Positions 13,106-16,327 of a DNA stretch of 16,473 nucleotides are shown piece by piece. Source of the stretch: a virus; the UHGV virus genome UHGV-0341991. One strand, given 5' to 3'. The translations under genes and the position numbers were made by a program. Below the pieces are notes generated by a model that saw only the letters and a list, made by a program, of their open reading frames with translations, was not told the DNA's origin and did no database searches. Each line of letters begins with the position of its first letter. Position 1 is the stretch's first letter.

Positions 13106-13123
13106 AAAAAGCACCAGCTATGA

Positions 13124-13297
13124 TCATGCTACTTTGCGACGACGAAGCTTACCCTGCTGCTCTTTACCAGAGACAGTAGCGTGAGTGAACGCATTAGGAG
13201 CAGCCTTCATCAGAACTTCAACAGCAGCCCCCATACCTGCGAATGCTTTCATTGTGTCGAACTTAACCTGTGGCTTGGTTGCTTTTTGATCTTCCAT
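13124..13297 (-). CDS. Small hypothetical protein (57 aa), absent from the ORF track
   Basis: Hand translation gives MEDQKATKPQVKFDTMKAFAGMGAAVEVLMKAAPNAFTHATVSGKEQQGKLRRRKVA. GGAG lies 8 nt upstream of ATG 13297; the terminator follows the stop. Confidence 0.45.
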   Translation of the reverse strand: MEDQKATKPQVKFDTMKAFAGMGAAVEVLMKAAPNAFTHATVSGKEQQGKLRRRKVA

Positions 13298-13336
13298 AGA
13301 AAACTCCAGAAGCTATACCGAAAAAATTCCTGTTGT

Positions 13337-13756
13337 TTACTCATCATCAATAGATGATACGCAATATTTATTTTTAAATTTAAGGTTCTTTGGCGTAACT
13401 TCATCAGATATATCAAAACCGTCCAGAATTCTATTGAATGTAGCTTCTGGCATATCATCATGAACAGAAATCTCACCCGATCGCTGCTTTCTAACCATGT
13501 TATCCACTCGCCAAATTATAGCTTCAGCGTAAACAACATAACTTGGATGCTTGATAAAGCGATGATCACCAGAATTCAAGACGCAAGACGGATCGTGGGG
13601 GACACCATCCTTGATACTAGAAATATTAACAACTAAAACACAATAACAATCGTTAACGGGGTAATAAACAGGATCATTACAAATCACATGAAGATGATTG
13701 CATGGCCCTGTTGGGGCAAGCACAGTTCCTTTCCTGTATGGCTGATAATCCGTCAT
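13337..13756 (-). CDS. Hypothetical 139-aa protein translationally coupled to the Panacea-domain gene; candidate toxin/effector (PanT-like)
   Basis: ATG at 13756 overlaps the upstream TGA (ATGA at 13753..13756). Protein-like composition; no domain recognised by eye. Confidence 0.6.
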   Translation of the reverse strand: MTDYQPYRKGTVLAPTGPCNHLHVICNDPVYYPVNDCYCVLVVNISSIKDGVPHDPSCVLNSGDHRFIKHPSYVVYAEAIIWRVDNMVRKQRSGEISVHDDMPEATFNRILDGFDISDEVTPKNLKFKNKYCVSSIDDE

Positions 13757-14325
13757 GATAATTGCAAAGAAAATTCCTTAAGTTTCTGAGATTCTTCCAT
13801 TTTGCCAATTATATGATTAGCCTCATCCTCGCTTTTACCCTCACTGATCAGCATTTCTTTCAGATCTATAGGCTTACGGGAATAGCCGGGATCGTGCCAC
13901 TCTGGACAAACGCTTTCTAAATGCGTCATGTTTGCGAGATCAAATCGGTTCATATGCCCATACAGAGAATAGATTTCATCTAAAATCCGGATATCTGCAC
14001 GGCTCAACTCATCAAAGACCTCGTCTGCATCCATTTCCCTCGGATCTGAACGCAACAACACATCATGCCCGTTCGTCTCTATCAAGTTGTACCAGTAGTC
14101 ACCAATGCCTTCAGCCTTACCACGAATCAAGTTCAGCGTATTCGACATGACTGGTCCAAATTTCATAGAGTAAAGGCTATCTTCGCCGATCATCCTGCCA
14201 TGCTTCAAAATCGACTTGCGGTTAGACAGATAGAGCAGCTTCATCAGTTTCAGATATGCCATGCGCCCACCTCGCTTAAGAAGTAGGTATGCAGCCATTT
14301 GAGCTACTTTTTCTTCGCAAAACAT
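13753..14325 (-). CDS. Panacea-domain (DUF4065, SocA/GepA-like) protein; candidate antitoxin (PanA-like)
   Basis: N-terminal EKVAQMAAYLL..GRMAYLKLMKLLYLSNRKSI..GPVMS fits the Panacea/DUF4065 signature as recalled. GAGG lies 8 nt before ATG 14325. Confidence 0.6.
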   Translation of the reverse strand: MFCEEKVAQMAAYLLLKRGGRMAYLKLMKLLYLSNRKSILKHGRMIGEDSLYSMKFGPVMSNTLNLIRGKAEGIGDYWYNLIETNGHDVLLRSDPREMDADEVFDELSRADIRILDEIYSLYGHMNRFDLANMTHLESVCPEWHDPGYSRKPIDLKEMLISEGKSEDEANHIIGKMEESQKLKEFSLQLS

Positions 14326-14974
14326 ATAAGAAACCTCAAAAAGATAGTGAACTTTGTAATTATTCTCGATACTTCATGGGTCGCTTCATCACCAACATGA
14401 GCTTCTTATGGTGTGCCCACTTGAGCCTAAGCAACCAGTTACCTTGTTTGTCAAGTTTATAGCTGGCTTTAATCATGGTCAATTGAAGTGATGGACAAAT
14501 GATGCTTTCTAAGAATGGCAGGTTCCCAATAGGCTCCCACAAAGTGTATAACTAGTTGTTTTTCAAAAACGGTACATCCTATCGAGCATTGGTGCAACGC
14601 TAAACCGACCACTCCAGTGAACGTCAGTTTTTTCAGGCATTGCGCTGGTTTGGTTGATTTTTTGCATTTCAGAATTACCGTGCATTTTTAAATGTAGAGA
14701 TTATTTTATCGATATATCATGGGGTTATGTTATTCAGCATCACTGTTCAGGAGGCTCAATAGCGGGGTACTATACCATAACAACAGGAAGCGCCTGTCTC
14801 ATTGCAAAAGAAAATTGAGATCCTCTCAAGGCATGAAGCTCTCACGAAGTGATGGAAATAATCTTATTAGCCGTTAGCTTTGTTAAGGCCAATGATAAAC
14901 AATCCAGGTTCGACGATAAATAAAAATCACACATTAAACTACGGTGATATCTCTCCCTGCTAATAGCACTGATA

Positions 14975-15010
14975 GAGAAAAAAAGAACCCAATAAGCATT
15001 GGGTCCTTTT
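14975..15010 (-). terminator. Intrinsic terminator for the 320-aa gene
   Basis: Minus strand: ggacccaat-gctt-attgggttc followed by a 7-8 U tract; lies 38 bp downstream of the stop at 15048. Confidence 0.75.
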
Positions 15011-15047
15011 ATATAATGCCTTCCATACTATCGAAGAACTTCACATA

Positions 15048-16010
15048 TTATTTCTCCGATTTAACCCCGAATAAATCATAAATTAATTTAGAAGTGTCTG
15101 TAAGTATTTTAATCTTTTCCTTTGAGTTTGGGTCAAACGACTTAGCAAAGTCAATTAATTTCGGTGCAGCATCTCGCATTTTGCTTAAAATATCAGGTTC
15201 GAGCTTTCCTTCATTCACCAGAAGTGACATTTTATCCAGATAGTCATCAAAATTCATTTCTCCCCCATCTGCCAGACGCTTCATCTCTCCCAGGTACTTC
15301 TTCATATCACGTTGAGATAATTCTTCAAACTGAGCTGTCAGATAGTTCTCATTATATTCATTAATCTTCACTCTTTCTGCTCCTGCTAAATCTACGTAGG
15401 CACTAGAATATGAAAGTGAAATTAACAGCGAAGCGAATAATTTTAAGCTGTTGTCATCATATTCCTGACATGCATTAACAAACGTTAAAAAACCAGAACC
15501 TATTGCTTGCAAATGTATATTCGCTAAAGGTTCATTATCTTTAGATTCCTCATAAAAAAGCTGAACCGTGGAGGGAAGGCCATTCTTAGTTTCTACGTCA
15601 AAAGTACATCGTTCTATGGGCGTCGCATCTTTATTATCCTCGGGATTACATATACTATTAATCGCGAAATGAAAAATAGCCCGGTCAACAACTGATGCAA
15701 TAAATTCACGATCGTTTAATTCCTCATCAGTACAATCTCCAATATACTCATTGACACACATTTTGAGATCATTTATTTGCTTAATTAACGTCACATTTTT
15801 TTCACGTGCAGTCCATAAATTATGAGTGATTCTTTGAATAAACAAATCTATTTTTGCAATAATTATATCCCGATGACGCATCGCTGAATAATCAATAGAT
15901 TTACCATATATACTATTTACTTTACCTTTGATTGCATCTTCATTATCGAATTGATTTGAATTGAGTGTTTTATTAAAGTATCCAGTTGCACCGGGTATTA
16001 TCTTCAACAT
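15048..16010 (-). CDS. AT-rich orphan hypothetical protein (320 aa), divergent from zur
   Basis: Long ORF with protein-like composition in a low-GC region and its own terminator; no motif recognised. Confidence 0.7.
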
Positions 16011-16327
16011 GATTCATCTACCTTTTTTGTCGTACCGTGTCCTCCTTATAATTCTTTTGCCATCTGCTCACTATCAAAAATCGCTCATAATCTCTGAAGT
16101 ACAGGTATGCAATCAAACCCAGCTAAATAAATAGCGATTTAACTTGAAGCAATTTATTTAAAAATGAATTATTAATTATTATCGTGTTGATAATGGTACT
16201 ACCAGGCAAAACAACACCTTACGTACAAAACAGAAAATCAACATTACGGCAACAATAAGGGTTCTCGGTGTTTTTCCTGGAACATGGTAAAGTAAGGACA
16301 TTCTTAACCCCCACTTTGAGGTGCCCG

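What the first reader, a model, noticed from the sequence alone, without database searches (positions are those of the whole stretch)
13106..16327. Compositional island: AT-rich accessory segment between the prophage core and zur
By eye the GC content drops sharply to the right of the bidirectional terminator at 13081..13105 and stays low until the zur promoter. The segment holds the PanA-like pair, a 57-aa ORF, 650 bp of AT-rich non-coding DNA (14326..14974) and the 320-aa orphan. No integrase or att core is visible, so the prophage end or attachment site may lie within 13.1-15.0 kb.
Basis: seen in the sequence. Interest (0 to 1): 0.45.

Follow-up and report, generated by a model that had tools for sequence, protein, structure and literature searches.

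The report
Prophage end in dusA beside AT-rich islet
The AT-rich stretch is real but is two unrelated pieces joined at a prophage attachment site inside the dusA gene: a swappable phage toxin-antitoxin cassette on one side and an E. coli-only orphan-gene islet on the other, which is mostly ordinary, well-understood biology.

Summary
The GC drop is real: 38.4% for 13106-16327 against 49.3% for 1-13105. The best change point is at 13282 and GC recovers in zur. The segment is not one island.

**Prophage part (13106-14581).** It holds a conserved 57-aa ORF, then a 1.2-kb swappable cargo cassette (13311-14520). The cassette carries a PanA (Panacea) antitoxin and a MazF-fold toxin. A 61-bp attP arm follows.

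**Junction.** The attR core TCGAGCAT lies at 14582-14589, in codons 33-35 of dusA. This is a dusA-targeting lambdoid prophage of the mEp460 type. In close relatives its integrase and a replacement dusA 5' end sit at the far end, outside the window.

**Chromosomal part (14582-16327).** It holds the orphaned first 35 dusA codons, the old dusA upstream region, and an intact 320-aa DUF2713 gene that is split into yjbL and yjbM in K-12. This 35.8%-GC islet is absent from 1123 of 5426 complete E. coli genomes, where dusA directly abuts zur.

One speculative extra: the K-12-type dusA 5' end, and perhaps the linked yjbLM islet, may be a fossil of an older dusA-integrating element.

The parts
12768..13076 (+). 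Excisionase (PrtN-family protein). It is the last gene of the rightward early operon and belongs to the phage backbone.
   Evidence: Pfam PyocinActivator, E = 4.2e-23. PHROG phrog_1300 'excisionase', E = 8.4e-40. Annotated as excisionase in phage mEp460.
13080..13105 (-). Intrinsic terminator between the convergent xis operon and the cargo operon.
   Evidence: 11-bp stem with 6 G-C pairs, then a T run on the minus strand. On the plus strand only 4 T follow, so the scan does not show it to be bidirectional.
13124..13297 (-). 57-aa conserved phage backbone ORF of unknown function.
   Evidence: phrog_2741, E = 2.2e-35. GC is 0.483. Conserved at about 98% in prophages that carry a different cargo.
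13311..14520 (.). Swappable AT-rich cargo cassette (1210 bp, GC 0.407) between the phage backbone and the attP arm.
   Evidence: Homology to mEp460, E7-1N7 and O157:H7 strain 7409 stops at 13310 and resumes at 14521. Those genomes carry a 177-aa unknown gene there. PhiR40_1 carries a YafM/YafO pair there. The GC change point is at 13282.
13753..14325 (-). PanA antitoxin (Panacea/SocA domain), 190 aa.
   Evidence: Pfam PF13274 SocA_Panacea, E = 1.8e-18, residues 27-137. Same two-gene arrangement in Shewanella and Proteus.
13337..13756 (-). Putative PanT toxin, 139 aa, MazF/Kid-like fold. Its start overlaps the PanA stop by 4 nt.
14521..14581 (+). attP-derived left arm of attR, with two GGYTCCCA motifs (14521 and 14532).
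   Evidence: Near-identical to the mEp460 attP left arm: 2 mismatches across 14521-14581. The motif occurs only 3 times in the window against 0.8 expected. Similar GGTTCCC motifs lie next to int in attL. A role as integrase arm sites is an inference.
14582..14589 (.). att core TCGAGCAT (attR), the prophage/chromosome junction.
   Evidence: It is the only stretch shared by attL (KGu016), attB (K-12), attR (window) and attP (mEp460). In SCU-484 the same phage has the attR core TCAAGCAT, taken from the short-type attB.
14582..14685 (-). Orphaned original 5' end of dusA (codons 1-35, MHGNSEMQKINQTSAMPEKTDVHWSGRFSVAPMLD).
   Evidence: 100% identical to K-12 dusA nt 1-104. RefSeq annotates it as an incomplete tRNA-dihydrouridine synthase in KGu016.
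14686..15047 (.). Former dusA upstream region, including the DUF2713 terminator at 14981-15010. Chromosomal.
   Evidence: Collinear with K-12. Terminator-like site found. The piece 14590-14800 is >=95% identical in 4303 genomes.
15048..16010 (-). Intact 320-aa DUF2713 gene, equivalent to yjbL plus yjbM of K-12. Reported almost only from E. coli and Shigella, GC 0.342.
   Evidence: Pfam DUF2713, E = 1.6e-142, residues 84-320. K-12 YjbL aligns to residues 1-~74 and YjbM to 84-320. Among named homologues only E. coli appears, plus one partial sequence labelled Klebsiella. Present in 4284 of 5426 genomes.
16011..16327 (.). Intergenic region between DUF2713 and zur. From 16261 it is shared with genomes that lack the islet.
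   Evidence: CU532-9 (no DUF2713) aligns with the window only from 16261. zur's ATG is at 16328.

Best explanation
The low-GC stretch is a composite of two horizontally acquired pieces. They meet at the right attachment site (attR) of a lambdoid, mEp460-like prophage integrated into the 5' end of dusA.

**Shown**
- The phage recombined at the 8-bp core TCGAGCAT, which lies in dusA codons 33-35.
- In close relatives the phage carries its own copy of the first 35 dusA codons next to its integrase. dusA is therefore rebuilt at the far end, and the original 5' fragment is stranded at 14582-14685.
- Between the phage backbone (xis, terminator, 57-aa ORF) and the attP arm lies a 1.2-kb exchangeable slot. 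Here it holds a two-gene PanA/PanT module.
- Everything right of 14581 is host DNA. Part of it is itself a low-GC islet with an E. coli-specific orphan gene (DUF2713, yjbLM). That islet is present in 79% of complete E. coli genomes and absent from the rest.

**Inferred**
- The module works as a type II toxin-antitoxin pair: the 139-aa MazF-fold protein is a growth-arresting RNase and PanA neutralises it by direct binding.
- The module serves prophage stabilisation and/or abortive-infection defence.
- It is transcribed leftward from its own promoter, and possibly also by read-through from the stranded dusA promoter. All alternative cargos have the same orientation as that promoter.
- The low GC reflects foreign origin and a recent, fast-evolving gene.
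For: **Composition:**

**Junction**
- K-12 aligns from 14582 to 16472 at 93.5%.
- The attL/attB/attR alignment shares only TCGAGCAT.
- The attP of the isolated phage mEp460 has a left arm equal to window 14521-14589 and a right arm equal to attL.
- In the close relative KGu016, a rebuilt dusA and a divergent tyrosine integrase sit 44.5 kb to the left.

**Literature:** dusA-specific elements replace the dusA 5' end and leave imperfect direct repeats (PMC4482086).

**Cargo slot**
- Breakpoints are at 13310/13311 and 14520/14521.
- Alternative cargos are seen.
- The whole cassette is present in phages SKA5 and Lys8385Vzw.

**PanA/PanT**
- Pfam Panacea, E = 1.8e-18.
- The pair is conserved with a 4-nt overlap in Shewanella and Proteus mobile elements.
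- Kurata et al. 2022 describe a validated PanA-associated, HHpred MazF-like toxin cluster (T6). It includes Proteus, Pantoea and Pluralibacter pairs with the same order and overlap.

**Independence of the two halves**
- The same prophage at 99.9% identity abuts zur without the islet in SCU-484.
- The islet occurs without a prophage in K-12.
- dusA directly abuts zur in 1123 genomes.
Against: - The other prophage end is outside the window. The integrase and the rebuilt dusA are seen only in close relatives (98.9% identical over 12172-16472), not in this genome itself.
- No toxicity, neutralisation or defence data exist for this pair.
- PADLOC has no model for it. The toxin has no Pfam PemK/MazF sequence match.
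- I did not align the pair directly with a validated T6 member.
- The promoter scan is no better than shuffled sequence: 9 sites found against 11.2 expected. The transcription statements are therefore inference.
Confidence: 0.9

Rival explanations
1. The whole segment 13106-16327 is a single accessory island that belongs to the prophage, and the true prophage end lies at the zur promoter.
For: GC is continuously low from about 13.3 kb to 16.3 kb. DUF2713 matches two PHROG families and 24 IMG/VR contigs.
Against: - K-12 has no prophage here yet carries 14582-16472 collinearly.
- The att core lies at 14582-14589.
- The same prophage occurs without the DUF2713 region.
- In almost all of the 24 viral-contig hits the DUF2713 match lies at the contig end and in the rest within about 1 kb of it. 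This points to prophage-boundary overshoot.
- No phage record matches anything beyond the first 102 nt right of the core.
Confidence: 0.02
2. The chromosomal half (long-type dusA 5' end plus the yjbLM/DUF2713 islet, 14590-16260) is a fossil of an earlier dusA-integrating element that lost its integrase. On this reading the window holds two generations of dusA insertions side by side.
For: - The E. coli dusA 5' end is biallelic: a long type in 4303 genomes and a short type in 1123, which together make all 5426.
- The two types diverge immediately to the right of the att core, while the dusA body is about 96% identical.
- The long type is 86/104 nt identical, without gaps, to the phage-borne dusA 5' copy, including a 14-codon N-terminal extension. 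Against the short type it is only 39/58 with gaps.
- Salmonella and other Enterobacteriaceae have the short type.
- A long 'MHEN...' type in Xenorhabdus sits next to an integrase and tail-fibre genes.
- The long type is tightly linked to DUF2713 (4284 of 4303), and the short type is always contiguous with zur.
- DUF2713 has the same orientation as the cargo genes in the present phage.
Against: - No extant element carries DUF2713 internally.
- No integrase remnant or second att core lies between DUF2713 and zur.
- The phage lineage could instead have captured the long-type 5' end from E. coli.
- The DusA N-terminus is poorly conserved between species anyway, so a break near the start of the conserved domain is less diagnostic than it looks.
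- The zur-dusA interval is variable in other genera for unrelated reasons (a TraF_2 outer-membrane protein gene).
Confidence: 0.4
3. The PanA pair is a host chromosomal toxin-antitoxin locus that merely lies next to the prophage. It is not phage cargo.
For: It lies at the extreme edge of the prophage, on the opposite strand to the neighbouring phage operon, and has a different GC.
Against: - It lies on the phage side of the att core.
- It is present inside the circular genome records of phages SKA5 and Lys8385Vzw, between xis and int.
- It is absent from unoccupied dusA sites.
- It travels with the prophage into a different chromosomal background.
Confidence: 0.02

Closest known systems
dusA-specific prophages and genomic islands with dusA-associated integrases (Farrugia et al. 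2015, PMC4482086)
   Same: - Insertion in the 5' end of dusA.
- The element supplies a replacement 5' end.
- The original 5' fragment is left at the far junction.
- Imperfect direct repeats: attR and attL here share 18 of 21 positions starting at the core.
- In the relative KGu016, a tyrosine integrase lies next to dusA.
   Different: This is a lambdoid E. coli phage rather than the Acinetobacter and Pseudomonas islands studied experimentally. I did not test the integrase's place in the DAI clade, and the integrase end is outside the window.
Enterobacteria phage mEp460 (NC_019716)
   Same: It has the same exonuclease, excisionase, 57-aa ORF, attP arms, core, dusA 5' copy, integrase and dinI. 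Identity over the shared backbone is about 97-98%.
   Different: The cargo slot holds a single 177-aa gene with no Pfam match instead of PanA/PanT.
Escherichia phages SKA5 (OR670062) and Lys8385Vzw (MT225100)
   Same: They carry the entire xis, 57-aa ORF, PanT, PanA and attP arm stretch at about 97.7% identity.
   Different: They are deposited as phage genomes. The Lys8385Vzw record shows a duplicated core (TCGAGCATTCGAGCAT), probably from joining prophage ends.
PanAT type II toxin-antitoxin systems, toxin cluster T6 (Kurata et al. 2022, PMC8832971)
   Same: - A Panacea-domain antitoxin lies upstream of a small toxin with a 4-nt overlap.
- The toxin has no CDD or Pfam hit but a MazF/PemK-like fold.
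- T6 includes Proteus, Pantoea and Pluralibacter pairs. The P. moraviensis representative was validated as a translation-inhibiting toxin-antitoxin pair.
   Different: This E. coli pair is not listed by accession in the part of the dataset I could search. T6 membership is inferred, not shown. The family has an invariant H21/H23/C26/D55/C58/H65 set that was not compared with the catalytic residues of canonical MazF.
yjbL/yjbM of E. coli K-12 (DUF2713)
   Same: Same locus between dusA and zur. YjbL and YjbM align to the N- and C-terminal parts of the 320-aa protein.
   Different: Here the gene is intact; in K-12 it is split into two ORFs. The function is unknown in both.

Membership tests
dusA-specific integrative element (DAI type, Farrugia 2015) | Integrated within the 5' end of dusA | tested here: met
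   The core lies at dusA codons 33-35. K-12 homology starts at 14582.
dusA-specific integrative element (DAI type, Farrugia 2015) | The element supplies a replacement dusA 5' end | tested here: met
   Seen in attL of the near-identical prophage in KGu016 and in the attP of mEp460: a 104-nt copy, 82.7% identical to the host version. This end is outside the window.
dusA-specific integrative element (DAI type, Farrugia 2015) | Flanked by semi-conserved imperfect direct repeats (about 21 bp) | tested here: met
   attR TCGAGCATTGGTGCAACGCTA against attL TCGAGCATAGGAGCAATGCTA gives 18 of 21. I did not compare it with the published logo because the figure is not held.
dusA-specific integrative element (DAI type, Farrugia 2015) | Integrase of the DAI clade adjacent to dusA | tested here: inconclusive
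   In KGu016 a 365-aa protein with Pfam Phage_integrase (E = 1.1e-20) is divergent from dusA. No phylogenetic placement was done, and the gene is not in the window.
dusA-specific integrative element (DAI type, Farrugia 2015) | Excises as a circle and restores dusA | not testable with these tools
   Needs PCR or long reads on induced cultures.
PanAT type II toxin-antitoxin system | Antitoxin carries the Panacea (DUF4065, PF13274) domain | tested here: met
   E = 1.8e-18, 67.9 bits against a cut-off of 25.7.
PanAT type II toxin-antitoxin system | Conserved two-gene neighbourhood with the partner across taxa and contexts | tested here: met
   Shewanella island and Proteus prophages: a Panacea gene immediately upstream with a 4-nt overlap in all 5 loci read.
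PanAT type II toxin-antitoxin system | The partner is toxic and is neutralised by PanA through complex formation | not testable with these tools
   Needs a toxicity-neutralisation assay and a pull-down.
MazF/PemK/Kid endoribonuclease toxins | MazF/Kid/CcdB-type fold | tested here: met
MazF/PemK/Kid endoribonuclease toxins | Sequence match to the PemK/MazF family | tested here: not met
   No Pfam or NCBIfam hit. A profile search against PDB sequences found nothing below E = 0.3. Identity to the structural hits is 7-17%.
MazF/PemK/Kid endoribonuclease toxins | Catalytic residues and RNase activity | not tested
   The invariant H21, H23, C26, D55, C58 and H65 were not mapped onto MazF active sites.
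DUF2713 (YjbM family) | Pfam PF10897 match | tested here: met
   E = 1.6e-142, covering model positions 1-235 at residues 84-320.

The most novel reading that the evidence does not exclude
The dusA gene of K-12 and about 79% of complete E. coli genomes has a mobile-element-derived 5' end (its first 35 codons). It is inherited together with the AT-rich yjbLM/DUF2713 orphan-gene islet as the decayed remnant of an ancient dusA-integrating element. Present-day mEp460-like phages then re-target that relic, so the window would show two generations of insertion at one site.
Probability: 0.4. Interest if true: 0.5.

Novelty: new member of a known kind. Interest (0 to 1): 0.3.

Why it matters
It fixes the prophage boundary to within 8 bp. 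It also explains why no integrase is visible, and it stops the DUF2713 gene from being counted as phage cargo. Prophage predictors do make that mistake: in all 24 IMG/VR contigs found with DUF2713 the match lies at or within about 1 kb of a contig end.

It identifies a small exchangeable slot next to attP in dusA-targeting coliphages. The slot alternately carries PanA/PanT, YafM/YafO or an unknown gene, which makes it a convenient place to look for new toxin-antitoxin or defence genes.

If the relic idea holds, a housekeeping gene of the reference strain K-12 would carry a phage-derived N-terminus, and an E. coli orphan gene would gain an origin story.

Tried and rejected
- **Rfam, tRNA and repeats.** The Rfam scan of 12500-16473 at E <= 1 gave only sub-threshold hits on the terminator. 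There are no tRNA genes. No meaningful direct or inverted repeats lie inside 13000-16473; the matching att repeat is outside the window.
- **PADLOC.** No hit for any of the four proteins.
- **NCBIfam.** Only noise.
- **PDB sequence search.** A profile of the 139-aa family gave nothing below E = 0.3.
- **DUF2713 structure.** The alignment was too shallow, and the model had pLDDT 52. I did not use it for a fold search.
- **Genome-collection scan for DUF2713.** It gave only four Escherichia/Shigella loci. Two were '57% identity' hits; the one I checked, L017, is a frameshift-ridden assembly.
- **Search for the E. coli accessions in the Kurata 2022 supplement.** Not found; the stored file is truncated.
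- **Single-island and host-locus readings.** I considered and rejected both 'one island that extends the prophage to zur' and 'PanA pair is a host locus' (see the rival explanations).
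Full report
**1. Observation**

A 500-bp sliding window shows GC falling from about 0.48 at 12.5-13.0 kb to 0.38 at 13.25-13.75 kb and to 0.31 at 15.75-16.25 kb. Exact counts give 0.384 for 13106-16327 and 0.493 for 1-13105.

- No window of the same length to the left falls below 0.454.
- The best single change point is after 13282, with a log-likelihood ratio of 60.
- The first 146 bp of zur are back at 0.534.

So the compositional discontinuity is real. It begins about 180 bp to the right of the terminator, because the 57-aa ORF still has 48% GC. It also has two levels: 0.415 up to 14581 and 0.358 beyond.

**2. Where the prophage ends**

Megablast of 12500-16473 against 5426 complete E. 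coli genomes found every genome, but only 164 covered at least 80% of the query. In the closest hit, KGu016, RefSeq annotates the following order:

- a 3'-5' exonuclease;
- a PrtN-family protein;
- two hypothetical proteins;
- a Panacea-domain protein;
- an incomplete tRNA-dihydrouridine synthase missing its C-terminus;
- a DUF2713 protein;
- zur.

About 44.5 kb to the left in the same genome lie a full-length dusA and a divergent tyrosine integrase, followed by dinI, tail fibre, tail, head and terminase genes. K-12 has zur-yjbL-yjbM-dusA with no prophage. It aligns with the window only from 14582 to 16472, at 93.5% identity.

Aligning attL (KGu016), attB (K-12) and attR (window) shows one common stretch, TCGAGCAT, at 14582-14589. 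To its left the window matches nothing in dusA. To its right the window is identical to the first 104 nt of K-12 dusA.

The attP of the isolated phage mEp460 has a single TCGAGCAT. Its left arm equals window 14521-14589, and its right arm equals attL, which is a diverged copy of the dusA 5' end followed by int. This is the architecture described for dusA-specific elements: the element replaces the 5' end of dusA and leaves the original fragment and imperfect direct repeats (PMC4482086).

No integrase is visible in the window because int lies on the other side of attP from xis and the cargo. In the relative KGu016 it therefore ends up at the opposite prophage end. I did not see that end in the source genome itself.

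**3. The phage-derived AT-rich part (13106-14581)**

The PrtN-family ORF at 12768-13076 is the excisionase (Pfam E = 4.2e-23; phrog_1300). The terminator at 13080-13105 is detected on the minus strand. The 57-aa ORF is conserved phage backbone (phrog_2741).

Homology to mEp460, to E. coli E7-1N7 and to an O157:H7 prophage stops at 13310 and resumes at 14521. In between, those genomes carry a different cassette of about 0.8 kb with one 177-aa gene that has no Pfam match. Phage PhiR40_1 carries a pair annotated YafM antitoxin and YafO toxin there.

The 1210-bp cassette of the window has GC 0.407 and is found whole in phages SKA5 and Lys8385Vzw. At least 80% of 13106-14581 is covered in 205 of 5426 genomes. 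Another roughly 450 genomes share only the 57-aa ORF end or the attP arm. The GC change point (13282) therefore coincides with a mosaic breakpoint (13310/13311).

**4. The cassette genes**

The 190-aa protein has a Panacea/SocA domain (PF13274, E = 1.8e-18). The 139-aa ORF starts 4 nt before the PanA stop codon.

- It has no Pfam, NCBIfam or PADLOC hit.
- It belongs to phrog_19071.
- It has 62 relatives; the named ones come from Enterobacterales, Vibrio and Shewanella.
- In a Shewanella integrative island and in Proteus prophages the relative lies directly downstream of a Panacea gene, again with a 4-nt overlap.
- The family has invariant H21, H23, C26, D55, C58 and H65.
- An AlphaFold2 model has pLDDT 91.

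Kurata et al. 2022 describe PanA-associated toxins with no domain hit but HHpred similarity to MazF/PemK. Their cluster T6 was validated with the P. moraviensis pair and contains Proteus, Pantoea and Pluralibacter pairs with antitoxin-toxin order and a 4-nt overlap (PMC8832971).

I therefore read the pair as a PanA/PanT type II toxin-antitoxin module, probably of cluster T6. Toxicity, neutralisation and any anti-phage role are inferred, not shown.

**5. The chromosomal AT-rich part (14582-16327)**

It consists of:

- the stranded dusA codons 1-35;
- 362 bp of former dusA upstream region, with a terminator at 14981-15010;
- a 320-aa DUF2713 gene at 15048-16010 (Pfam E = 1.6e-142);
- the divergent promoter region up to zur's ATG at 16328.

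K-12 YjbL (84 aa) and YjbM (235 aa) align to the N- and C-terminal parts of this protein, so K-12 has a split copy. Named homologues come only from E. coli, apart from one partial sequence labelled Klebsiella, and lengths run from 318 to 340 aa. A structure model was too poor to use (pLDDT 52).

This part is not universal either. In strain CU532-9, dusA and zur are 155 bp apart, and homology to the window resumes only at 16261.

- The 148-bp short-type junction occurs in 1123 of 5426 genomes.
- The long-type dusA 5' end plus upstream region occurs in 4303.
- The two counts sum to exactly 5426.
- All 1123 short-type genomes have dusA contiguous with zur.
- The DUF2713 coding sequence is found in 4284 genomes.

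The two halves of the 'island' are independent. Strains SCU-484, PG20180057 and 1290 match the window at 99.9% but lack about 1.77 kb of it. In SCU-484, the one examined, the PanA cassette is directly next to zur, with a short-type dusA fragment and attR core TCAAGCAT.

**6. Mechanism**

Shown by comparison of sequences:

- site-specific integration at an 8-bp core in dusA;
- replacement of the gene's 5' end by a phage-borne copy;
- an exchangeable cargo slot next to attP.

Inferred:

- The two GGYTCCCA motifs at 14521 and 14532, and similar ones next to int, may be integrase arm sites.
- The cargo is transcribed leftward toward the 13080-13105 terminator. Because every alternative cargo has the same orientation as the stranded dusA promoter, read-through from that host promoter after integration is possible.
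- The toxin-antitoxin module stabilises the prophage or aborts infection by other phages.

**7. A more novel reading**

The long-type dusA 5' end is 86/104 nt identical, without gaps, to the phage-borne copy, and they share a 14-codon extension (MH.N.E.QKINQTS). Against the short type it is 39/58 with gaps. Divergence between the two E. coli types starts right at the att core.

Salmonella and other Enterobacteriaceae have short-type N-termini. A long 'MHEN' type in Xenorhabdus sits next to an integrase and tail-fibre genes. This suggests that the long type, which is the K-12 type, was itself donated by an ancient dusA element, perhaps together with the linked DUF2713 islet.

Against this:

- No element carries DUF2713 internally. 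In all 24 viral-contig hits the match lies at or within about 1 kb of a contig end, which is a boundary artefact.
- No integrase or second core remains.
- Capture of the host 5' end by the phage lineage is an alternative.

I give this reading a probability of about 0.4.

**8. Verdict**

The components are a dusA-targeting lambdoid prophage junction, a PanAT cargo module, and the known but uncharacterised yjbLM locus. All are members of known kinds. Interest is modest. The relic hypothesis and the cargo slot are the parts worth following up.

Noticed in passing
window 15048-16010; L003 3322-4307: K-12 yjbL (84 aa) and yjbM (235 aa) are the two halves of one 320-aa DUF2713 gene that is intact here. 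The Pfam DUF2713 model (235 positions) and phrog_29005 cover only the C-terminal part, residues 84-320 and 73-320 respectively.
   Followed up: yes
window 15048-16010; L014 2958-3962: DUF2713 is hypervariable at a fixed locus. Strain THO-008 has an allele only 50% identical in protein. In 364 genomes the gene is 60-80% identical in DNA, while the adjacent dusA' and upstream piece is >=95% identical in all 4303 genomes that carry it. N-terminal length also varies (318-340 aa).
   Followed up: partly
window 14582-14685; L013 3853-3913: The E. coli dusA 5' end is cleanly biallelic: a long type (345-aa DusA) in 4303 genomes and a short type (331-aa DusA, Salmonella-like) in 1123 genomes. The split begins at the phage att core.
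   Followed up: yes
L025 3746-4220 (strain SCU-484): In SCU-484 the same prophage (99.9% identity) is integrated in the short-type dusA, directly next to zur, with attR core TCAAGCAT. Strains O2:H6 PG20180057 and 1290 give the same 89%-coverage, 99.9%-identity match and were not examined. The integrase therefore tolerates a G/A difference at core position 3.
   Followed up: partly
L011 4881-4896 (phage Lys8385Vzw record): The deposited 'complete phage genome' has the core duplicated in tandem (TCGAGCATTCGAGCAT), whereas mEp460 has one copy. This is probably an artefact of circularising prophage coordinates.
   Followed up: no
L026-L049 (IMG/VR contigs): In all 24 viral-contig matches DUF2713 lies at or within about 1 kb of a contig end. 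The PHROG and IMG/VR 'phage' status of DUF2713 therefore looks like a prophage-boundary overshoot.
   Followed up: yes
window 13337-13756: RefSeq annotates this gene as 128 aa (387 nt) in several genomes. Residues 6-17 are conserved across genera, and the 4-nt overlap with panA is also conserved. Both support the 139-aa start.
   Followed up: partly
L008-L010 (Proteus): In Proteus the homologous PanA/PanT pair lies between phage tail-fibre genes and a variable neighbour (UPF0167 or Abi_2) next to a Peptidase_S8 gene. This looks like another prophage-edge defence or cargo hot spot. A Peptidase_S8 gene also lies upstream of the long-type dusA in P. mirabilis (L019).
   Followed up: no
L022, L023: In two assemblies with a short-type DusA (one a MAG labelled Escherichia sp., the other an unlabelled assembly of a public sequencing run) a 438-aa TraF_2-family outer-membrane protein gene occupies the zur-dusA interval. 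That interval is therefore a recurrent variable spot.
   Followed up: no
window 1-13105: The left part is mosaic relative to the KGu016 prophage: collinear blocks at 89-98% identity are separated by unrelated stretches. It has its own GC step at 3539 (0.542 to 0.475) and GC troughs of 0.42-0.45 at about 5.75-7.0 kb and 7.75-9.25 kb.
   Followed up: no
window 13337-13756 (alignment A1): The PanT-like family has an invariant His/Cys/Asp set (H21, H23, C26, D55, C58, H65) on a MazF-like fold. This raises the possibility of metal binding or a different catalytic mechanism.
   Followed up: no
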